Source: an uncultured Dehalococcoidia bacterium
GTDB taxonomy: Bacteria > Chloroflexota > Dehalococcoidia > Lucifugimonadales > UBA2985
Assembly (NCBI GenBank): GCA_964573055.1
Contig: CAZNIG010000018.1
Location: 23,538-87,537 of the forward strand
Reading direction: 5' to 3'
Length of the DNA: 64,000 nucleotides
In this document: positions 7,232 to 53,794 of the stretch, piece after piece
Position numbering within the stretch: the stretch's first letter is position 1
How the letters are laid out: each line of letters starts with the position of its first letter
Program-made: the position numbers and the translations under genes
Notes under the pieces: generated by a model
What the model was told of the DNA's origin: nothing
What the model saw: only the letters and a program-made list of their open reading frames with translations
The model's database searches: none

Positions 7232-8050
7232 TTATTCCACTGCTTCTATTTTATACCTAATGTTACCCATAGGAGTCGACACCTCTACCTCCTCACCGGA
7301 ACCATGATCAATAAGAGCCTTTCCGACCGGAGAGCTAATTGACATCCTAGCTTCCATTGGATTGGCCTCGGCAGGATTTACTAAGGTGTAGACCATCTCG
7401 AGACCTAGATTTTCATCAAGCAGTTTGACAACACTGCCCAGTTTTACTTTACGCTGATCCATTCTAACGGAATCCTGCGATTCCGCATTAACTAACCTCG
7501 CTCGTTTCAAATTATCTTCTAGTTCTCGTATACGAGCTTCCATAAACCCCTGTTTTTCCCTAGCTGCATCTAACGGAGCGTTCTCCCGGAAATCCTTATC
7601 GGCCGCAGCTCTCCTAATTTCCTGAGCAACAGAAACTCGCTCTTCACGCAGGCTCTCCAACTCATCCAATATTGCTTGATACCCCTCAGAGGTGATATCA
7701 ACGGCCAAAGCAGCCTTTTGCGCTTGAGCCGAACCTCGTCGATTAGATTTTTTGAGTTTCATATGCTTTGCCAAAGATGTATCTATAAGACTGTTCTTAT
7801 AACAGAACGTCAAGAAATCCTTGACTGCTTCAGCATTCCCAGTAGGATCCTTTCCTCTGATCTGACCGTATTCTTCAGCTAAGCTAGGAGTCAAGGAACC
7901 AAGATTCCTTTCTCCACCACCAAACCATCTAACAAATCGACTGAGTTCCTTGTGTTTTTCTTGCTCCGCTATTTTGACTCTAGTAGCTAGATACTTGGAA
8001 AGGGCATCGGACAAACTTATTGGATCAGACGGCATAGTTGATTTCACCAA
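7232..8050 (-). CDS. greA: GreA-family transcript cleavage factor with a ~117-aa N-terminal extension
   Basis: Residues ~118-272 align to GreA ('DFRENAPLDAAREKQGF' coiled-coil tip, 'ISSPVGKALIDHGSGEEVEV' C-terminal domain). Residues 1-117 are extra. The start is TTG 8050 or ATG 8035. Confidence 0.7.
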   Translation of the reverse strand: MVKSTMPSDPISLSDALSKYLATRVKIAEQEKHKELSRFVRWFGGGERNLGSLTPSLAEEYGQIRGKDPTGNAEAVKDFLTFCYKNSLIDTSLAKHMKLKKSNRRGSAQAQKAALAVDITSEGYQAILDELESLREERVSVAQEIRRAAADKDFRENAPLDAAREKQGFMEARIRELEDNLKRARLVNAESQDSVRMDQRKVKLGSVVKLLDENLGLEMVYTLVNPAEANPMEARMSISSPVGKALIDHGSGEEVEVSTPMGNIRYKIEAVE

Positions 8051-43093: not shown

Positions 43094-43705
43094 ATGCTTG
43101 ATAACCCACCAGATAGTGATGCGCCAAAAAGTGAGCCTAAATCTCGCTTCAGGTGGATACACTATTTAGTATACGCCGGCCTCATCATTCTCGGCCTTTT
43201 CGCAGGAATTTATCTAGGAAACCTACGAAATAATAGCCAAAATCCACCCGCCCCAAATTTCTCATTCACACTATACCAAGGCGCAGAACGACTAGGAGCG
43301 GAAAAACTCGAACTTAATGACCTGAAAGGTAGACCATTAGTCTTAAATTATTGGGCTGGGCTATGCCCCCCTTGCCGTGCTGAAATGGATGATCTTCAAA
43401 TCTTCAGCGACCAATACAGCGAAAAAATAACCACCCTCGGGATAGATCTCGGACAGTATTTGGGATTGGGCAGCAATGAGGATGCCTTAACCCTACTTGA
43501 AGATATGAACGTGACATACCCTGCCGGCTTTACAGAAGATCCGACAGTGATCGAAAAATATCAGATCTTCGGCATACCTACCACAATATTTATAAACCCA
43601 GATGGAACTATTTTCCGCACATGGGCTGGGCTCCTTGATGAGCAGGTTCTGGTTGAAATATCAAGTGAGATGCTCGGCAACCAAATGGAACGATCAGCTA
43701 ATTAG
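43094..43705 (+). CDS. membrane-anchored TlpA/ResA/CcmG-like thiol-disulfide oxidoreductase
   Basis: 203 aa with one TM anchor, 'VLNYWAGLCPPCRAEM' (CxxC) and the cis-Pro motif 'FGIPTTIFINPDG'. Confidence 0.75.
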   Translation: MLDNPPDSDAPKSEPKSRFRWIHYLVYAGLIILGLFAGIYLGNLRNNSQNPPAPNFSFTLYQGAERLGAEKLELNDLKGRPLVLNYWAGLCPPCRAEMDDLQIFSDQYSEKITTLGIDLGQYLGLGSNEDALTLLEDMNVTYPAGFTEDPTVIEKYQIFGIPTTIFINPDGTIFRTWAGLLDEQVLVEISSEMLGNQMERSAN

Positions 43706-43979
43706 AGTTATTTTGAACTTTTCCGAATCTAGTTGAACATAATCGAATCAATAATGAGCGCCCCGCAATAAGACACATGTAGTACAATATCCCTCGCGTA
43801 AAACGTATAGTAATTCAGCATTAAACCTAGTTGGCCTCTGTTGGCCTGTAAAGTAGACCCTTTCTTCGCCGGTTCATAAACCAGCGACTGACTAAAACCT
43901 GTGCTCATTACCTGAGGTACAGAAACGGTGTCCAAAAGGTCACGCCAAGATAATCACTGCCATATACCATAAAGGAAGT

Positions 43980-45347
43980 GTGATGACCAATTTTGATTTG
44001 ATTGTTGTGGGAGCTGGATCCGGTCTAGAGGTTTCTTCTCAAGCTGCGAATTCTGGAATGTCCGTAGCCATCGTAGAAGAAGGACCATTCGGAGGTACTT
44101 GCCTAAATCGCGGATGCATACCATCCAAGATTCTGATTTATTGCGCCGATGTGATGGAAATAATCAAAAACAGCGCTACTTTCGGCATTAACGCTCGCGT
44201 TGAAAGCGTTGACTGGGATTTCATGATGAGTCGCGCATACCAAGAGATAGATTCAGATGCTCTAGCGATAGAAACAGTCAATAAAGACAACAAGAATATC
44301 ACCGTTTTCAACGGAACTGGACATTTCACAGGTGAAAAAACTTTAGAGGTGAATGGCCAAAATATCACGGCAAACACGATCGTGATAGCGGCCGGAACCA
44401 GACCATTTATTCCTGATATTCCGGGCCTTGAAGATGTGCCGTTCATAACATCAGACGAAGCGCTCCGACTACCTAATCAACCCAAGCGACTCACCATTAT
44501 CGGTGGGGGTTATGTTGCAGCAGAAATGGCTCACTTTTTCGGAGCCATGGGAACAGATGTCACCATAGTCCAAAGACACAACCTGCTCCTCAGAACCGAA
44601 GATGAAGACGTTTCACAACGGTTTACGGAGATATATCAAAGAAAATTCAACCTCTTACTGAATGCCCAGATCCAAAAGGCCTACATGGATAGTAATGGTA
44701 TAGCCTTAGATGTATTAGTAAATGGCGAGACAGAGACCGTTATTTCAGACTCGCTCATGCTAGCCACCGGACGTATACCAAATAGTGACAGGCTCAAAGT
44801 CTCCAATACTGGGGTCGAAGTCGACCAACTGGGCTTTATAAAGACCGATGGATATCTCGAAACAGGTGTACGCGGCATATGGGCATTGGGTGACATAGCT
44901 GGAAAATACATGCTAAAGCACAGCGCCAACCTTGAAGCGGCACATGTAGCTCATAATGCTCTCAACAGAGCCCAACGAGTAGCCGTTGACTACCGCGCCA
45001 TGCCACACGCAATATTCGGATCGCCGCAAGTAGCAAGTGTTGGCATCACAGAAAAGCAGTCCAAAGAGGAACATATCCACTGTCTCACCGCTACGTACAG
45101 CTATTACAATACAGCGTATGGCTCATCCTTGGAGGATAGGGATGGCTTTGTCAAAGTCCTTGCACACCCCGAAGATGGTGAGATACTTGGCTGCCATATA
45201 ATCGGTCAGAATGCCTCAATGCTGATCCAAGAGGTAGCCAACGCTATGCGCCTACGCCTTCCTAGCGACGCGATAACACAATCAATATATGTACACCCTG
45301 CACTACCAGAAGTAGTTCAGCGAGCTTTTGGTGAACTACCACGATAG
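43980..45347 (+). CDS. FAD-dependent pyridine nucleotide-disulfide oxidoreductase, mycothione-reductase-like
   Basis: 455 aa with a GTG start. It has 'VVGAGSG', the redox disulfide 'GGTCLNRGCIPSK', 'GDIAGKYMLKHSANLEA', and a C-terminal 'VHPALPEVV' instead of the glutathione-reductase HPTxxE. Confidence 0.75.
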   Translation: MMTNFDLIVVGAGSGLEVSSQAANSGMSVAIVEEGPFGGTCLNRGCIPSKILIYCADVMEIIKNSATFGINARVESVDWDFMMSRAYQEIDSDALAIETVNKDNKNITVFNGTGHFTGEKTLEVNGQNITANTIVIAAGTRPFIPDIPGLEDVPFITSDEALRLPNQPKRLTIIGGGYVAAEMAHFFGAMGTDVTIVQRHNLLLRTEDEDVSQRFTEIYQRKFNLLLNAQIQKAYMDSNGIALDVLVNGETETVISDSLMLATGRIPNSDRLKVSNTGVEVDQLGFIKTDGYLETGVRGIWALGDIAGKYMLKHSANLEAAHVAHNALNRAQRVAVDYRAMPHAIFGSPQVASVGITEKQSKEEHIHCLTATYSYYNTAYGSSLEDRDGFVKVLAHPEDGEILGCHIIGQNASMLIQEVANAMRLRLPSDAITQSIYVHPALPEVVQRAFGELPR

Positions 45348-49714: not shown

Positions 49715-50191
49715 ATGATGATTAACCAGTACTCTTTTGTCGGCTTCGGACTAGCGTTATTAATAATAGCTGGATTTTTCAGCTGGCGACTTATAGGTTT
49801 AAAAATTGCCATACCGATAGTACTAATATCTGCGTTAATACTTGTCATATCTCAATCAATGCTAAGTACCAAGCAAAACCCATACACCAACCTAGAAGTA
49901 TTAAATGAATCCGTTAATTCAGGCAAGCCGTCATTGCTGGTATTCTACTCAGATTTTTGACTTGCCTGCCTTGCTGCCAAGCCTGTAGTTGACAGGCTAG
50001 AAAAGAACCTAGGAAACGGATTCCTTGTAATAAGAATCAATGTTGGATCAGAACTCGGTAGGCAAGCAAGAAAACAATATGGAACAGGAGTTGTTCCCAC
50101 CTTCATATTACTGGATAAATACGGTAACCAAGTATTGAAGCAAAGCGGTGTTGTTCCTAGCCTATCTACGATCGTCTCTCTAGGACTTTAG
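49715..50191 (+). CDS. membrane-anchored thioredoxin-fold protein with an in-frame UGA (candidate selenocysteine, U-L-A-C redox motif)
   Basis: The ORF track stops at TGA 49958-49960 (codon 82), but the same frame stays open to TAG 50189-50191. The joined product has two TM helices and 'KPSLLVFYSDF-U-LAC...' followed by the cis-Pro motif 'GVVPTFILLD' 46 residues after U. A SECIS-like hairpin lies downstream of the UGA. Confidence 0.7.
49980..49998 (+). other. candidate bacterial SECIS hairpin
   Basis: AGCCUGU-AGUUG-ACAGGCU forms a 7-bp stem with a 5-nt apical loop containing GUU. The loop starts 26 nt after the UGA. Confidence 0.55.
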
Positions 50192-50268: not shown

Positions 50269-50898
50269 ATGAACACGGAAAACAATAACCAGTCAAACCC
50301 AATCGAGGCCGCCGGCTTTCTTCATGAGGCCCTTCGCACAGCAGCGAACCAAGTAAAACAAATATCCGATCAACTCGGAACCGTACATAGTCTGCAAGGA
50401 TTGACATTAGCCTTTACTAACTGGGTCACGGTATTAATATTCAACATGACCCAACAGGAAAATCATGTAGAACCATCCTTGCGAGACGCTTTATCTAAAG
50501 CAACCAGCAATGAAGATCAAAAGAACGGTAGCATAATATTGGCGCTCTCGAGGGTGGGCCGCCAAGAACAAATGCAGACGATAGAAGATGTGTTCTCTGT
50601 TCTTTACGGTGAAATCGGGGATACCAGCCTAATCACCAGAACAACCCAGCACCTTCAACGACAGATATTAGCTATGGAGATGGCTCAAACGAACAATCTT
50701 GAAACCCAGGACCTCTTAATGATACCGATTCTAGCCAATAGGATGGATAGGTTTGATCAGCTGTCGCTCATCAAAAATCTTCTGATCGACGAACAATCTG
50801 ATAATCGCAGATGGATAGTAGAGTGGATATCGGAAAATTCAAATCCTATCAGCAAATCTGCCTTAGCTGAAATTGAAAGCCAGTTAGCTGATATATAG
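50269..50898 (+). CDS. hemerythrin-like domain protein, degenerate paralogue
   Basis: 209 aa, paralogous to the next gene ('LLIDEQSDNRRWIVEWISE' versus 'LLIDSESENPRWIIDWLFSE'). Several His/Glu ligand positions appear to be substituted. Confidence 0.5.
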   Translation: MNTENNNQSNPIEAAGFLHEALRTAANQVKQISDQLGTVHSLQGLTLAFTNWVTVLIFNMTQQENHVEPSLRDALSKATSNEDQKNGSIILALSRVGRQEQMQTIEDVFSVLYGEIGDTSLITRTTQHLQRQILAMEMAQTNNLETQDLLMIPILANRMDRFDQLSLIKNLLIDEQSDNRRWIVEWISENSNPISKSALAEIESQLADI

Positions 50899-50916
50899 CT
50901 CTGTAGAGGCAACAAT

Positions 50917-51609
50917 ATGATTGACAACCAGAACCACTTGGACCACCCAATTGACATTATGTACCTATTCCACAAGGCATTCATGATTCACTCTGTCAGA
51001 ACTGAAAATCTAGCTAAAGACAGTGTCGAAGGAGGTGACCTCCGCAGTTTCAAGAATTCTTTCGAGCAATGGGCAAAGCTATTTAGATATCACGTTGACA
51101 CTGAAGACAAGTACATGACTACCCCTCTTGCAGAAAGCCAATATGCGAGGCGAAACGAGACCGAGCATGAAGAACTACGAGAAGGAGCTAGAAATGTTGA
51201 AGGTATCTTATCTGCTGGAGATACCTTTGGCCTATCGAGATATGTGAATTCAGTTATGCAAGCCTTAGACGAAGAACAGCATGAAGAGATATCTTGGAGT
51301 ATGCAGGAAGTCGAAGAATACCTCAAACAAGCGATTGGAGAAGAACGGGTGACAGCAAGAACCAGAAGGCATCTTTATGGAAAAGTAATGGCCTTGCGCA
51401 TGCTCGAGTTCGACCACTTTGAAAACGAAGAAGCTTTCGTGGTAACTGAGGTGAGAGAACATTTGACCGTTCATCAGCAGATGGAAATAGCCAGGCATCT
51501 TCTTATTGATAGTGAATCTGAAAACCCAAGATGGATAATTGATTGGTTATTCAGCGAACTAGATGCTGGCGATCGCGAAATAATTTCTAGTCTAGAGTCC
51601 CAATTCTAG
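50917..51609 (+). CDS. hemerythrin-like (HHE cation-binding) domain protein
   Basis: 230 aa with 'PIDIMYLFHKAF', 'FRYHVDTEDKYM', 'ETEHEELRE' and 'FDHFENEEAFV', which are H/E-rich four-helix-bundle motifs. Confidence 0.6.
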   Translation: MIDNQNHLDHPIDIMYLFHKAFMIHSVRTENLAKDSVEGGDLRSFKNSFEQWAKLFRYHVDTEDKYMTTPLAESQYARRNETEHEELREGARNVEGILSAGDTFGLSRYVNSVMQALDEEQHEEISWSMQEVEEYLKQAIGEERVTARTRRHLYGKVMALRMLEFDHFENEEAFVVTEVREHLTVHQQMEIARHLLIDSESENPRWIIDWLFSELDAGDREIISSLESQF

Positions 51610-51640
51610 ACCAATATATGTACTTCGAGGAGAATACCCT

Positions 51641-52432
51641 ATGACACTAAATGTTATGGTGATGGTCAAACAGGTCATTGACCCAGACATCCAGATATCC
51701 GGCTTAAACCTAGACCAAGAAACTCTTACCGTATCTGCTTCAAGCAACTCCCCATCGGTTGTAAACGGCTACGATGAACAAGCAGTAGAAGCCGCATTAC
51801 GTCTAAAAGATACACAAGACACTCACATCACTGCAATATCCATAGGGACTAAGTTCGCGATGGACGTAATAAAGAAACCATTATCCATGGGTTGCGACGA
51901 ACTTGTCCTACTTCAGGATCCATTATTCGAGAATCTAGACAGCTTCGGAATAGCGCAACTATTGGCTACGGCCATCGGCAACCTAGGACATTTTGACCTA
52001 ATTCTTGGTGGACGTCAGGCTTCAGATTGGGATAATGCACAGGTGCCGTCTGGAGTGTCTGAGATCTTAGGCATACCGTGTATAACCATGGCGAAGGATG
52101 TGAAGATATCGCAATCAAAAGTAAGGGTTGAGAGGGTGATTCCAGACGGTTCCGAGGTAGTAGAAACAGATCTACCTTCAGTTGTTATAGTAAGCAACGA
52201 ACTTGGCAAACCAAGGTTTCCAACCATCACAAACATTATGGCCGCAGCGCGGAAAACACCAAAAATAGTCACAGCTCAAGACTTAGATTTCCAATTCTAT
52301 GCGCCACAAGTTAAGATAACCGATCTCTATATTCCAGTCACAGATAAAGATTGTGAATTTATAGAGAGCGAAGACGAAGGGGACTTGGGCCGAAAGCTTG
52401 CACTTACACTAAGAGAAGCAAAACTAATATAG
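51641..52432 (+). CDS. etfB: electron transfer flavoprotein beta subunit
   Basis: 263 aa with 'VMVKQVIDPD' and 'LILGGRQASDWDNAQV' motifs. Confidence 0.85.
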   Translation: MTLNVMVMVKQVIDPDIQISGLNLDQETLTVSASSNSPSVVNGYDEQAVEAALRLKDTQDTHITAISIGTKFAMDVIKKPLSMGCDELVLLQDPLFENLDSFGIAQLLATAIGNLGHFDLILGGRQASDWDNAQVPSGVSEILGIPCITMAKDVKISQSKVRVERVIPDGSEVVETDLPSVVIVSNELGKPRFPTITNIMAAARKTPKIVTAQDLDFQFYAPQVKITDLYIPVTDKDCEFIESEDEGDLGRKLALTLREAKLI

Positions 52433-52540
52433 AATCCCAATATACAGTTCATAAAAACACCCGCCAAGCCAATAGTAATACGACTACTCTATTGGTTAAA
52501 GCGATATAGCTGATGAGATCAGCTAGAGTATGGGGGCACA

Positions 52541-53542
52541 ATGGAAAACACTAATGGAATCCTTGTAATAGGAGAAATAGGTGAAGGGAAACTGGCCGCT
52601 GTTTCAAGAGAAGCGCTGGCTTGTGCTCGCAAGTTAGCAGAGCAATCACAATCTCATGTCGCGATAGCTATCCTTGGTAAAGATTTACAATCTATAGCAA
52701 TTGAAGCTATAGCATTTGGAGCGGACAAAGTTTACCTTGTTGATGAAACCTTTCTGGAGGATTTTCAAGTCGAGATTCATCTCTCAGTTCTAGAAAACGT
52801 GGTTAGGGATCACAATCCACAAATAATCATATCCAGTAAAACAAATATAGGCCGCGACCTGGCTCCTAGACTGGCTTTCAGATTAGGCACTGGCCTAATG
52901 CAAGACTGCATAGATCTCTGGATTGACCAAGACTCTGGTACACTTTCTGGCTCCCGCCCAGTGTTTGGCGGTAACTTCATAGCAACTATTACAGGAGTAT
53001 CCCCCAGACAAGTAGCCGCAATAAGGAGCAAGGTCATAGAAGAACTGGAGCCAGACCATGAAAGAAAAGGCGAGATAGTCAACCACGCTACCCCAATAGA
53101 CCCTGCTGCAGTGGCAAAAACTAGCCTGATAAGCCGAGTGAAAGAGGAGTCTAAAGGGATAAAAATAGAAGAAGCTGCAATAGTAGTTGGAGGTGGACGG
53201 GGATTGGGAGGCCCTGAGGCTTTCGAACAATTAGAGGTCTTGGCAAACTTACTAGGTGGAGCGGTAGGTGCATCAAGAGCAGTTTGCGACGCTGGCTGGA
53301 TGTCTACTGCACATCAGATAGGATTGACCGGCAAGACCATTACGCCAGACCTATATATAACTGTAGGCATATCTGGAGCTATCCAGCATATGGCTGGTTG
53401 CGACAGGTCTAAAGTAATCGTCGCAATTAATCAAGACAAACGTGCCAACATATTCGATTCCGCCAGATACGGAGTAGTAGGAGATTGGAACACTATATTG
53501 CCAAGCTTCATAGAGGAAGTACGAAGACTGGTTGAAACATAG
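52541..53542 (+). CDS. etfA: electron transfer flavoprotein alpha subunit
   Basis: 333 aa with a C-terminal FAD-binding region: 'VVGGGRGLGGPE', 'GASRAVCDAGW', 'QIGLTGKTITPDLYITVGISGAIQHMAG'. Confidence 0.85.
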   Translation: MENTNGILVIGEIGEGKLAAVSREALACARKLAEQSQSHVAIAILGKDLQSIAIEAIAFGADKVYLVDETFLEDFQVEIHLSVLENVVRDHNPQIIISSKTNIGRDLAPRLAFRLGTGLMQDCIDLWIDQDSGTLSGSRPVFGGNFIATITGVSPRQVAAIRSKVIEELEPDHERKGEIVNHATPIDPAAVAKTSLISRVKEESKGIKIEEAAIVVGGGRGLGGPEAFEQLEVLANLLGGAVGASRAVCDAGWMSTAHQIGLTGKTITPDLYITVGISGAIQHMAGCDRSKVIVAINQDKRANIFDSARYGVVGDWNTILPSFIEEVRRLVET

Positions 53543-53554
53543 GAGGACGCTGGA

Positions 53555-53794
53555 ATGAAAGTAATAGAAGTTTACGGAACCGAATGGTGCGGCGATTGTA
53601 AGAGGGCAAAAAAAGTCCTTGATGAACGCGACGTCGATTATAACTGGACAGACATAGACAAAGAACCGAAATTGATGGAATACGTCAAACAACTCAACAA
53701 TGGTAAAAGTATAGTTCCAACCATCGTGTTCCCCGACGGCTCTATCCTAGTAGAACCAAGCAATGTACAACTGATAGAAAAGCTGAACCTGTAA
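53555..53794 (+). CDS. glutaredoxin-fold protein, mycoredoxin-like (CGDC motif)
   Basis: 79 aa with 'YGTEWCGDCKRAK' and 'NNGKSIVPTIVFPDGSILVEPS'. It resembles mycoredoxin-1/NrdH-like small redoxins and starts 12 nt after etfA. Confidence 0.7.
   Translation: MKVIEVYGTEWCGDCKRAKKVLDERDVDYNWTDIDKEPKLMEYVKQLNNGKSIVPTIVFPDGSILVEPSNVQLIEKLNL

What the first reader, a model, noticed from the sequence alone, without database searches (positions are those of the whole stretch)
49715..50191. Probable selenocysteine-recoded, membrane-anchored thioredoxin-fold protein (UxxC) hidden by an in-frame TGA
The ORF track ends an 81-aa ORF at TGA 49958-49960. The same frame then runs 76 more sense codons to TAG 50189-50191, and that downstream part has no start codon of its own, which is why it is missing from the track.

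The joined translation is MMINQYSFVGFGLALLIIAGFFSWRLIGLKIAIPIVLISALILVISQSMLSTKQNPYTNLEVLNESVNSGKPSLLVFYSDF-[TGA]-LACLAAKPVVDRLEKNLGNGFLVIRINVGSELGRQARKQYGTGVVPTFILLDKYGNQVLKQSGVVPSLSTIVSLGL.

- **Fold:** this reads as two TM helices followed by a complete thioredoxin fold.
- **Position of the TGA:** it sits exactly where the first Cys of the WCxxC motif belongs, giving U-L-A-C.
- **Cis-Pro motif:** 'VVPTF' follows 46 residues later, compared with 44 in E. coli thioredoxin.
- **Hairpin:** a 7-bp hairpin (49980-49998, loop AGUUG) starts 19 nt after the UGA, and its loop starts 26 nt after it. This is the geometry expected for a bacterial SECIS element.

Thioredoxin-fold UxxC proteins are the commonest class of bacterial selenoprotein. 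Standard gene callers would truncate or miss this one.
Basis: partly seen in the sequence, partly recalled or inferred. Interest (0 to 1): 0.85.

Follow-up and report, generated by a model that had tools for sequence, protein, structure and literature searches.

The report
Membrane-anchored thioredoxin-like selenoprotein gene
An apparent 81-codon gene is the front half of a 158-codon membrane-anchored thioredoxin-like protein whose active-site residue is almost certainly selenocysteine, encoded by an in-frame UGA followed by a conserved RNA hairpin; it belongs to a widespread, unannotated family in marine Chloroflexota.

Summary

- **Reading frame:** ATG 49715 to TGA 49958-49960, continuing in frame to TAG 50189-50191. 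It encodes two transmembrane helices and a complete thioredoxin fold (Pfam PF00085 across the TGA; AlphaFold pLDDT 91.6; Foldseek matches to thioredoxins).
- **Position of the TGA:** it aligns with the first Cys of CxxC.
- **Not an error or pseudogene:** the TGA is in 9 independent assemblies of this species, in a sister lineage about 90% identical, and in 68 of 70 divergent metagenomic orthologues (32-57% identity). The downstream frame is always open.
- **Cys/Sec pairs:** among the 150 best 50%-identity clusters, 75 carry Cys there, 17 carry 'W' (the four checked at DNA level, three of these representatives plus one lineage-2 member, have TGA, translated with code 4), and about 30 are half-proteins broken at that column.
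- **SECIS:** It is predicted independently by RNAalifold and shows compensatory changes. Its arms show extreme synonymous-codon conservation, which is absent from Cys forms.
- **Not shown:** selA, selB, selC and selD are not in the window, and the rest of the genome was out of reach.

This is a new, unannotated member of a known kind.

The parts
49715..50191 (+). Full recoded coding sequence: 157 sense codons plus one UGA (Sec) codon, ending at TAG. It encodes a 158-residue membrane-anchored thioredoxin-like selenoprotein.
   Evidence: frame; PF00085 over residues 63-147, across the TGA; family of about 160-aa homologues colinear over the whole length.
49715..49957 (+). N-terminal 81 codons, which is all that gene callers annotate. 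Contains the conserved NQYSF motif, two TM helices, and strand beta-1 of the thioredoxin domain (..KPSLLVFYSDF).
   Evidence: ORF list; the same 81-aa product is called on 9 contigs and is held by NCBI, ENA and Logan.
49733..49864 (+). Helical hairpin of two transmembrane helices (about residues 7-27 and 29-50), joined by a short K/R-rich loop (WRLIGLK).
   Evidence: AF2 helices 6-26 and 28-49 in P0015 numbering, pLDDT about 95. (hydropathy; the loop has a mean of 2.05 K+R across 62 homologues, while the 20 residues after TM2 are net acidic).
49958..49960 (+). In-frame UGA, the proposed selenocysteine codon (residue 82).
   Evidence: Conserved as TGA in lineage 2, in L017-L019 and in 68 of 70 metagenomic orthologues. 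Aligned with Cys in 75 cluster representatives.
49958..49969 (+). Redox motif U-L-A-C (Sec82-x-x-Cys85) at the N-terminus of helix alpha-1.
   Evidence: the second Cys is invariant; the first column is C or TGA. (the helix starts at the residue after the U position).
49980..49998 (+). SECIS-like hairpin AGCCUGU-AGUUG-ACAGGCU, built from codons K-P-V-V-D-R-L. 5' arm 49980-49986, loop 49987-49991, 3' arm 49992-49998.
   Evidence: -: dG -9.5 kcal/mol.
- consensus constraints met.
- 88% of cells paired, covariation exceeded by 0 of 500 shuffles, slid controls 15-46%.
- RNAalifold predicts the same 6-bp core.
- Pro CCT in 50/53 and Arg AGG in 52/53 only in this hairpin.
- absent in 8 of 8 Cys forms.
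49901..50155 (+). Thioredoxin-fold domain (Pfam PF00085 match, residues 63-147). The structural domain spans about residues 59-155.
   Evidence: beta-alpha-beta-alpha-beta-beta-alpha order; Foldseek: thioredoxins and DsbD-gamma, TM-score relative to target 0.65-0.81, rmsd 2.1-3.2 A.
50096..50098 (+). Codon of the invariant cis-Pro (Pro128, VVPTF), 46 residues after Sec82.
   Evidence: invariant column P128/P127; immediately precedes strand 128-132.
50189..50191 (+). True stop codon (TAG) of the gene.
   Evidence: Orthologues stop within a few codons of this position.

Best explanation
Window 49715-50191 is a single gene for a 158-residue selenoprotein.

**Shown**
- The UGA at 49958-49960 is a conserved sense position. 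It lies in the first-Cys column of the thioredoxin CxxC motif.
- It is followed at a fixed distance (19 nt to the stem, 26 nt to the loop) by a conserved hairpin with an invariant GU in its loop.
- That hairpin is under RNA-level selection only in the TGA-bearing members of the family.

**Inferred from the established bacterial mechanism**
- SelB-GTP-Sec-tRNA(Sec) binds this hairpin while the UGA is in the ribosomal A site and inserts selenocysteine instead of terminating.
- Sec82 then acts as the attacking nucleophile of a U-x-x-C selenol/thiol redox centre at the N-terminus of helix alpha-1.

**Inferred more weakly**
- The N-terminal two-helix hairpin anchors the protein in the cytoplasmic membrane, with the K/R-rich inter-helix loop inside and the thioredoxin domain outside.
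- There it would work as an extracytoplasmic thiol-disulfide oxidoreductase, probably a reductase in the manner of ResA, TlpA, CcmG, TxlA or HCF164.

The host is an uncultured marine Chloroflexota bacterium (Dehalococcoidia/SAR202-like).
For: **Frame and fold**
-.

**Not an error**
- Identical TGA in 9 independent assemblies.
- Lineage 2 (about 90% aa identity) keeps the TGA, has no indels, and shows a third-position excess of substitutions downstream: 8-11 synonymous against 8-9 non-synonymous codon differences.

**Deep conservation**
- 68 of 70 orthologous metagenomic loci (32-57% identity) have TGA in this column, with 74-96 open codons after it in every locus that is not cut by a contig end.

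**Cys/Sec pairs among the top 150 cluster representatives**
- 75 CxxC.
- 17 'WxxC'. The four checked at DNA level (L010, a lineage-2 member, and L017-L019, three of the 17 representatives) have TGA, translated with code 4.
- About 30 half-proteins that end or begin at the column.

**Standard genetic code**
- TGA terminates 9 of 48 ORFs of at least 200 aa in the window (all six frames).

**SECIS**
- Meets all four published bSECIS constraints (PMC13188914).
- 88% of cells pair against 15-46% in slid controls. The covariation score is exceeded by 0 of 500 shuffles. G-C to A-U double changes occur at two pairs, and CCU/AGG changes to CCG/CGG in L092.
- RNAalifold finds the same stem unaided.
- Within the same genes, the hairpin Pro is CCT in 50/53 and the hairpin Arg is AGG in 52/53. 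The equally conserved cis-Pro and V-x-R Arg use all synonymous codons.
- 0 of 8 Cys-form genes keep the five core pairs, against 45 of 53 TGA forms (Fisher p = 4e-6).

**Lineage**
- The nearest named RecG homologues are Chloroflexota, Dehalococcoidia and SAR202.
- All GTDB hits of the family are Chloroflexota.
- Chloroflexi are on record as having selenoproteins and tRNA-Sec (PMC1794560; PMC5389517).

**A second selenoprotein in related contigs**
- An AhpC/TSA-Redoxin lipoprotein with U-G-x-C has a hairpin loop AGUUG or AGUUA in the two loci scanned (L067, L080). It lies about 2 kb from the family gene in L067, L074, L075 and L080.

**Topology**
-.

**Context**
- One lineage has Ccm and ACIII genes as neighbours.
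Against: **Sec machinery not seen**
- No selA, selB, selD or tRNA-Sec was seen in the 64-kb window.
- None was seen in about 600 kb of related loci.
- The rest of the genome could not be reached, so the Sec trait of this organism is inferred, not shown.

**The window's own hairpin region is not exceptional thermodynamically**
- z = -0.2 to -1.2 against shuffles.
- Its MFE fold is a competing longer stem that is not conserved.
- Two single contigs (L006, L009) carry a substitution at 49985 that breaks one stem pair.

**Other limits**
- No Rfam family exists for, or matches, this element.
- The Cys-form DNA controls are few (8) and come from higher-GC genomes.
- The gene neighbourhood is not conserved, so the function is inferred from fold and topology only.
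Confidence: 0.9

Rival explanations
1. The UGA is recoded, with the help of the hairpin, but to cysteine or another standard amino acid rather than selenocysteine. One route would be a tRNA(Sec)-like tRNA(Cys) with a UCA anticodon delivered by a SelB paralogue. Another would be near-cognate read-through.
For: - No Sec machinery was observed in any sequence held.
- selC*-type tRNA(Cys)UCA systems exist in some anaerobic bacteria (PMC5389517).
- The sequence data alone cannot tell Sec from Cys at the UGA.
Against: - selC* systems were reported in Firmicutes, Thermodesulfobacteria, Nitrospirae and Proteobacteria, not Chloroflexi. They occurred alongside a full Sec apparatus.
- A conserved TGA paired with abundant Cys orthologues in a redox motif is the classical signature of Sec. 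If Cys were wanted, a TGY codon would do, and 75 related clusters use one.
- Chloroflexi are known to have tRNA-Sec and selenoproteins.
Confidence: 0.04
2. The organism, or the gene caller's model of it, uses a genetic code in which UGA is a sense codon (Trp as in code 4, or Gly as in code 25). Residue 82 would then be Trp or Gly, and the protein would be a redox-inactive WxxC thioredoxin-like protein.
For: Public protein collections hold 157-183-aa versions of the family with W at this position (P0013, P0015, P0017, P0033 and others).
Against: - In the four cases checked, the DNA under those W residues is TGA and the loci do not translate to the deposited product under code 11. The W is therefore a choice of the caller on short contigs.
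- In the window, TGA ends 9 of 48 ORFs of at least 200 aa, and no other credible gene is interrupted by TGA.
- The column aligns with the catalytic Cys, not with the Trp that precedes it in WCxxC.
Confidence: 0.01
3. The TGA is a genuine stop. The gene is either a decaying pseudogene or an 81-residue membrane peptide followed by non-coding remnant sequence. Alternatively, the TGA is a sequencing or assembly error for TGC/TGT.
For: - Every code-11 gene call stops here.
- The downstream part has no usable start codon.
- The fold energy of the hairpin region in the window alone is unremarkable.
Against: - The same TGA is in 9 independent assemblies.
- It is in 53 distinct orthologous sequences down to 32% identity, with 74-96 open, conserved, thioredoxin-like codons after it in the loci not cut by a contig end.
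- Substitutions downstream are biased to third positions and there are no indels.
- The Pfam and AlphaFold models need both halves.
Confidence: 0.01

Closest known systems
Bacterial thioredoxin-fold UxxC selenoproteins: Sec-containing thioredoxin (PF00085), 'thiol:disulfide interchange protein' (PF13098), 'thiol-disulfide isomerase-like protein' and 'thioredoxin-like protein' of marine metagenomes. All are listed in the prokaryotic selenoproteome review PMC13188914.
   Same: - Thioredoxin fold.
- Sec replaces the N-terminal Cys of CxxC.
- Many Cys-containing homologues.
- The SECIS hairpin lies inside the coding region just downstream of the UGA, with G(U) at the start of a small apical loop.
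- Marine occurrence.
   Different: - An N-terminal two-helix membrane anchor with a conserved NQYSF motif.
- Its own highly conserved SECIS, which fixes the peptide K-P-x-V-D-R-L.
- No curated NCBIfam selenoprotein model scores above its cut-off. The best selenoprotein model is TsoB, at 22.6 bits against a cut-off of 805.
- I could not establish whether the earlier metagenome surveys already counted it under 'thioredoxin-like protein'.
Membrane-anchored extracytoplasmic thiol-disulfide oxidoreductases: ResA, TlpA, CcmG/DsbE, and the cyanobacterial/plastid TxlA, HCF164 and slr1796-type proteins.
   Same: - A membrane anchor followed by a thioredoxin-fold domain with CxxC, predicted to face outwards.
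- The only two word-index homologues (P0001, P0002) are single-anchor WCTTC thioredoxin-like proteins of about 170 aa, which I read from memory as TxlA-like.
- The best NCBIfam hit is slr1796 (NF038096).
- In one lineage the gene sits next to ccmF, ccmH and a CcmG-like gene.
   Different: - Scores are far below family cut-offs: 35.5 against 140 bits for NF038096, and DsbE 16.9 against 123.
- Two TM helices instead of one.
- It lacks the TlpA/ResA insertion. Foldseek ranks classical thioredoxins and DsbD-gamma first.
- Sec rather than Cys.
- No conserved link to cytochrome c maturation genes across the family.
E. coli fdhF-type SECIS and the bSECISearch consensus (Zhang and Gladyshev 2005, as summarised in PMC13188914).
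   Same: - A stem-loop within the ORF, 3' of the UGA.
- A small apical loop with G followed by U.
- A fixed distance to the UGA.
- Loop 5 nt, stem 7 bp, spacing 26 nt and dG -9.5 kcal/mol, all within the consensus ranges.
   Different: - A short, simple hairpin without the bulged U of fdhF (the fdhF detail is from my own knowledge).
- In many orthologues the loop is 7 nt, with GU at positions 3-4.
- Binding by SelB is untested.

Membership tests
Bacterial selenoprotein gene (Sec-UGA plus bSECIS) | In-frame UGA with conserved coding sequence on both sides, kept in orthologues | tested here: met
   TGA in 68 of 70 orthologous loci, plus lineage 2 and L017-L019. The downstream frame stays open for 74-96 codons in the loci not cut by a contig end.
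Bacterial selenoprotein gene (Sec-UGA plus bSECIS) | Homologues with Cys aligned to the UGA (Cys/Sec pair) in a redox motif | tested here: met
   75 CxxC cluster representatives. The second Cys is invariant.
Bacterial selenoprotein gene (Sec-UGA plus bSECIS) | bSECIS consensus: apical loop 3-9 nt, upper stem 4-16 bp, G in the first two loop positions, 16-37 nt from UGA to loop, MFE <= -7.5 kcal/mol | tested here: met
   Criteria from PMC13188914. The window has loop AGUUG (5 nt, G at position 2 followed by U), a 7-bp stem, 26-nt spacing and dG -9.5 kcal/mol. bSECISearch itself was not available.
Bacterial selenoprotein gene (Sec-UGA plus bSECIS) | Hairpin conserved, with covariation, in TGA-bearing orthologues and relaxed in Cys forms | tested here: met
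   (covariation, RNAalifold, synonymous-codon control); 0 of 8 Cys forms against 45 of 53 TGA forms keep the core.
Bacterial selenoprotein gene (Sec-UGA plus bSECIS) | selA, selB, selD and tRNA-Sec present in the same genome | not testable with these tools
   Absent from the 64-kb window and from 602 kb of held loci. The remainder of the genome could not be fetched. There is phylum-level precedent only.
Bacterial selenoprotein gene (Sec-UGA plus bSECIS) | Selenium actually incorporated at the UGA position | not testable with these tools
   Needs 75Se labelling or mass spectrometry.
Thioredoxin fold (Pfam PF00085 / thioredoxin-like superfamily) | Profile match above the gathering score; beta-alpha-beta-alpha-beta-beta-alpha fold with CxxC at the N-terminus of alpha-1 and a cis-Pro before beta-3 | tested here: met
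   (27.2 bits against 23.5). (pLDDT 91.6; helix from residue 82). (thioredoxins at TM-score relative to target 0.72-0.81). Pro128 is invariant.
Curated NCBIfam selenoprotein families (TsoA LULAxC, TsoB, SaoT, HUIPC-motif Trx-like, GOS_C, WAxxUGC and others) | Score above the model's curated cut-off | tested here: not met
   only TsoB appears, at 22.6 bits against a cut-off of 805. None of the others is listed at E <= 0.01.
ResA / TlpA / DsbE (CcmG) thiol-disulfide oxidoreductases | Profile match above cut-off (PF08534, PF00578, TIGR00385, NF002854) | tested here: not met
   DsbE scores 16.9 bits against 123. There was no Redoxin or AhpC-TSA hit, and Thioredoxin_2 and Thioredoxin_8 are below their gathering scores.
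slr1796 / TxlA-like thylakoid thioredoxin-like proteins | NF038096 match above cut-off | tested here: not met
   35.5 bits against a cut-off of 140. P0001 and P0002 are only 32-36% identical.

The most novel reading that the evidence does not exclude
This could be a selenoprotein family not yet described as such: an outward-facing, membrane-anchored thioredoxin whose Sec forms outnumber Cys forms in deep-ocean Chloroflexota (SAR202-like). That would make these very abundant mesopelagic bacteria selenium-dependent. Its SECIS is so constrained that it dictates seven residues of helix alpha-1 (K-P-x-V-D-R-L). That gives a clean natural example of an RNA signal shaping a protein sequence.

A more radical reading is not excluded: the hairpin-dependent UGA is read as Cys rather than Sec. 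I put that at about 0.04.
Probability: 0.35. Interest if true: 0.6.

Novelty: new member of a known kind. Interest (0 to 1): 0.5.

Why it matters
**Annotation.** The deposited annotation keeps only an 81-residue 'hypothetical protein'. Public protein collections hold the family as halves, or with a false Trp at the active site. A correct model would repair dozens of clusters.

**Biology.** It indicates selenocysteine use in an uncultured marine Chloroflexota lineage. I found no open-access paper that discusses selenoproteins of SAR202-type bacteria. It also points to a selenol-based redox step on the outer face of the membrane.

**Method.** The family gives 53 or more natural SECIS variants with compensatory changes, plus matched Cys-form controls. 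That is a useful training and test set for bacterial SECIS and selenoprotein predictors, which the literature describes as still unreliable (PMC12013277).

Tried and rejected
1. **Word-index protein search with the joined sequence.** It returned only two distant homologues (single-anchor WCTTC thioredoxin-like proteins). The family appeared only with the exhaustive search.
2. **First genome-contig scan, with a single protein.** Nothing found. The second scan used a pattern containing [WC], so it could only find Cys forms: 6 loci, all Chloroflexota.
3. **The longer stem-loop that ViennaRNA prefers in the window (49961-50000).** It looked attractive because both lineage-2 substitutions strengthen it (z = -3.4).
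4. **Rfam.** No family matches at gathering score or at E <= 10.
5. **Search for other selenoprotein genes in the window.** I looked for TGA-split ORFs, redox motifs and hairpins. I found only antisense-frame noise.
6. **Sec machinery.**
   - No tRNA-Sec by ARAGORN in the window or in 47 loci.
   - No SelA/B/D families among 36 window ORFs scanned.
This is a weak negative.
7. **Conserved gene neighbourhood.** None was found. The Ccm/ACIII neighbourhood is seen in one lineage only.
8. **The split genes in L001.** They are strain or assembly differences (a GGA to TGA nonsense change and a frameshift), not further recoding.
9. **Submitting the joined sequence to the restricted tools.** The code-4-translated database entry P0015 served instead.
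Full report
**1. The observation**

- The sequence is as described. ATG 49715 opens an ORF that the mechanical ORF list ends after 81 codons, at TGA 49958-49960.
- The same frame stays open for 76 more codons to TAG 50189-50191.
- The only start-type codon in the downstream part is TTG at 50135, 18 codons before the stop, so no ORF list would show it.
- The hairpin AGCCUGU-AGUUG-ACAGGCU lies at 49980-49998, 19 nt after the UGA. Its loop begins 26 nt after the UGA.

**2. The two halves are one protein**

- With U written as C, the 158-residue product matches Pfam Thioredoxin (PF00085) over residues 63-147, across the TGA. The score is above the gathering threshold, 27.2 against 23.5 bits.
- AlphaFold2, run on a 62-sequence family alignment, gives pLDDT 91.6 and pTM 0.81.
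  - Two long helices (6-26 and 28-49) are followed by a beta-alpha-beta-alpha-beta-beta-alpha domain.
  - The first long helix of that domain starts at the residue right after the UGA position.
- Foldseek against the PDB returns classical thioredoxins and the DsbD C-terminal domain. TM-scores relative to the target are 0.65-0.81 and rmsd is 2.1-3.2 A.
- The invariant Pro128 (VVPTF) is 46 residues after position 82.

**3. The TGA is real and conserved**

- The 81-aa product is called on nine independent contigs from different samples. Their DNA is identical through the TGA and beyond.
- The 90%-identity cluster of this ORF has 15 members. Most are 80-81 aa and end in ...FYSDF.
- Three members are 157 aa and read 'W' at the site. 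The DNA of one of them (L010) has TGA and does not translate to the deposited product under code 11. The W is a code-4 gene call on a short contig.
- A sister lineage (L010-L016; Tara mesopelagic and JGI samples) is about 90% identical in protein.
  - It keeps the TGA and has no indel.
  - It differs from the window by 15-17 synonymous and 6-7 non-synonymous codons upstream.
  - Downstream, in the five full-length loci, it differs by 8-11 synonymous and 8-9 non-synonymous codons, with a third-position excess.

**4. A large family with Cys/Sec pairs**

- An exhaustive phmmer search of 1.84 billion cluster representatives with P0015 found 447 proteins at E <= 1e-3 and 56 at E <= 1e-10.
- The family members are about 160 aa. 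They have an N-terminal NQYSF motif, two TM helices, then ..(F/L)YS(D/N)(F/Y)-[C/TGA]-x-x-C-L-x-x-K-P-x-V-D-x-L-E.
- Classification of the top 150 representatives, excluding those longer than 260 aa:

| Class | Count |
|---|---|
| CxxC | 75 |
| 'WxxC' | 17 |
| SxxC or SxxS | 5 |
| No motif found (about 30 of them half-proteins that end exactly before, or begin just after, the column) | 38 |

- Three further W forms were checked at DNA level and all have TGA.
- A metagenome scan with the peptide pattern CL[SAK][AS]KPxVDR returned 70 confirmed loci, 32-57% identical to the window protein (apart from one truncated 28-residue match at 64%). Of these, 68 have TGA and 2 have TGC in the column.
- In every locus not cut by a contig end, 74-96 open codons follow the TGA.

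**5. The genetic code is standard**

- In the window, TGA ends 9 of 48 ORFs of at least 200 aa, counted over all six frames.
- No other credible gene is interrupted by TGA.
- The column aligns with the catalytic Cys, not with the preceding aromatic residue.

**6. The SECIS**

*Which structure is conserved.* I aligned 53 distinct TGA-form sequences from -6 to +54.

- Its covariation score and its count of double changes exceed all 500 shuffles.
- Double changes that keep pairing:

| Pair (alignment columns) | Change | Sequences |
|---|---|---|
| 30-46 | G-C to A-U (AAG..CUA to AAA..UUA) | 6 |
| 34-42 | G-C to A-U | 5 |
| 33-43 | U-A to G-C (CCU..AGG to CCG..CGG, in L092) | 1 |

- RNAalifold, with no guidance, predicts the same 6-bp stem.
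- The longer stem that is the MFE fold of the window sequence itself has no such support.

*Internal control within the same 53 genes.*

| Position | Codon usage |
|---|---|
| Hairpin Pro | CCT 50, CCC 2, CCG 1 |
| Invariant cis-Pro | CCC 16, CCT 15, CCG 9, CCA 8 |
| Hairpin Arg | AGG 52, CGG 1 |
| Conserved V-x-R Arg | spread over all six Arg codons (AGG 12) |

Protein-level selection and codon bias cannot explain this pattern. An RNA constraint can.

*Comparison with Cys forms.*

- None of eight Cys-form genes keeps the five core pairs, against 45 of 53 TGA forms (Fisher p = 4e-6).
- The peptide K-P-x-V-D-R is present in 8 of 17 W forms but only 6 of 75 Cys forms.

*Fit to the published consensus.*

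- Every TGA form has GU in the loop, from the invariant Val codon GUN.
- The consensus (PMC13188914) asks for a loop of 3-9 nt, a stem of 4-16 bp, G in the first two loop positions usually followed by G or U, 16-37 nt from UGA to loop, and MFE <= -7.5 kcal/mol.
- The window element has a 5-nt loop AGUUG, a 7-bp stem, 26-nt spacing and dG -9.5 kcal/mol.
- Read directly from the alignment, the base after the UGA is never U.

**7. The organism and the Sec trait**

- The window's RecG has its nearest named relatives (55-60% identity) in MAGs labelled Chloroflexota, Dehalococcoidia and SAR202 cluster.
- The six Cys-form loci found in GTDB species representatives are all Chloroflexota.
- Sample names point to open-ocean water columns, including Tara mesopelagic.
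- The window carries no tRNA and no Rfam hit.
- None of the 36 ORFs I scanned is SelA, SelB or SelD.
- None turned up in the flanks of the orthologues.
- Indirect support:
  - Chloroflexi are recorded as having selenoproteins and an 8/4-type tRNA-Sec (PMC1794560; PMC5389517).
  - Four related contigs carry a second TGA-containing gene about 2 kb from the family gene. It is an AhpC/TSA-Redoxin lipoprotein with U-G-x-C.
  - In the two of these loci that the hairpin scan reported (L067, L080), a hairpin starts 10 nt after the UGA: GCUCCG-AGUUG-CGGAGC in L067 and GCUCUG-AGUUA-CGGAGC in L080. The L067 loop is the same as the window's SECIS loop.

**8. Mechanism and function**

- *Shown:* a conserved sense UGA at the nucleophilic position of a thioredoxin redox motif, with a dedicated, selected hairpin at a fixed distance.
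- *Inferred from the established bacterial pathway:* SelB with Sec-tRNA(Sec) binds the hairpin and decodes the UGA. Sec82 and Cys85 form a selenenylsulfide/selenol-thiol couple.
- *Inferred from the positive-inside rule*: the inter-helix loop carries 2.05 K+R on average over 62 homologues, and the 20 residues after TM2 are net acidic. The thioredoxin domain would therefore lie outside the cytoplasmic membrane. This suggests an extracytoplasmic thiol-disulfide oxidoreductase.
- In one lineage the neighbours are msrB and, divergently, a CcmG-like gene, ccmF, ccmH, a cytochrome c gene and alternative complex III genes. The neighbourhood is not conserved across the family, so no specific substrate can be named.
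- The window itself holds other redox genes nearby:
  - a ResA-like gene at 43094-43705;
  - a flavoprotein disulfide reductase at 43980-45347;
  - ETF at 51641-53542;
  - an NrdH-like glutaredoxin at 53555-53794.

**9. Comparison with what is known**

- Thioredoxin-fold UxxC selenoproteins, including marine 'thioredoxin-like' families, are a well-known class (PMC13188914; PMC9402790).
- This family matches no curated NCBIfam selenoprotein model. It falls far below the cut-offs of ResA, DsbE and slr1796 models.
- In the public records it is annotated only as halves or with a false Trp.
- I could not determine whether earlier ocean surveys already counted it under a generic 'thioredoxin-like' label.
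- I therefore file it as a new, unannotated member of a known kind.

**10. Verdict**

| Item | Verdict or score |
|---|---|
| Observation | confirmed |
| Confidence that this is a selenocysteine-encoding gene | about 0.9 |
| Confidence in the outward-facing reductase role | about 0.5 |
| Interest | 0.5 |

Noticed in passing
L067:7739-8293 (TGA at 7985); L080:7736-8281 (TGA at 7967); also L074:7747-8298 and L075:7017-7568: A second probable selenoprotein gene lies about 2 kb from the family gene in an AT-rich lineage. It is an AhpC/TSA-Redoxin lipoprotein of about 184 aa with ..F(L/F)S(K/R)(Y/F)-U-G-x-C-R. The TGA is conserved at 61-85% identity. In L067 and L080 a hairpin (GCUCCG-AGUUG-CGGAGC and GCUCUG-AGUUA-CGGAGC) starts 10 nt after the UGA. 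The L067 loop is the same as in the window's SECIS.
   Followed up: partly
protein database entries P0013, P0015, P0017, P0033, P0034, P0036-P0038, P0042, P0043, P0045, P0047, P0052 and others: Public protein collections hold full-length members of this family with Trp at the Sec position. The cause is that short contigs were gene-called with genetic code 4. The rest are stored as N- or C-terminal halves, and some C-terminal halves begin at an artificial start codon right after the TGA.
   Followed up: yes
window 49968-49977 (alignment A5 columns 17-19 with 24-26): RNAalifold also proposes a tiny 3-bp stem between the UGC (Cys85) codon and the GCN two codons later. It has 8 C-G to U-A double changes. 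These may simply reflect AT-rich genomes using UUA and UCA together. In the window the third pair is a C-U mismatch.
   Followed up: partly
window 49985: Two single contigs of the same population carry G to T (L006, Val to Leu) or G to A (L009, Val to Ile) here. Either change breaks the sixth pair of the SECIS stem. They may be rare variants or assembly errors.
   Followed up: no
window 44394-44396 (GGA); L001:4564-4566 (TGA); L001 around 9530: The near-identical strain contig L001 (99.7-99.9% identity) has a Gly to stop change inside the flavoprotein disulfide reductase gene. It also has a frameshift in the MFS transporter gene that lies just upstream of the selenoprotein gene. These are strain or assembly differences, not recoding sites.
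   Followed up: yes
L096-L100 (for example L096:1166-11014): In the P0055 lineage the family gene lies between msrB/purT and a divergent block: a CcmG-like redoxin, ccmF, ccmH, a cytochrome c gene, and ActD/NrfD (alternative complex III). This hints at cytochrome c maturation or outer-face redox chemistry. The arrangement is not conserved elsewhere.
   Followed up: partly
window 43094-45347 and 50269-53794: The selenoprotein gene sits in a redox-rich stretch:
- a ResA-like thiol-disulfide oxidoreductase;
- a mycothione/dihydrolipoamide-type flavoprotein disulfide reductase;
- two unknown proteins of 209 and 230 aa, the second with a weak hemerythrin match;
- ETF beta and alpha;
- a 79-aa NrdH-like glutaredoxin (WCGDC).

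The two unknown genes and ETF follow the selenoprotein gene in lineage 2 as well (L011).
   Followed up: partly
alignment A5 column 10 (window 49961): The nucleotide after the UGA is C, G or A in all 53 TGA forms and never U. This holds even in AT-rich genomes that use UUA for the Leu three codons further on. It may reflect avoidance of a strong UGAU termination context.
   Followed up: no
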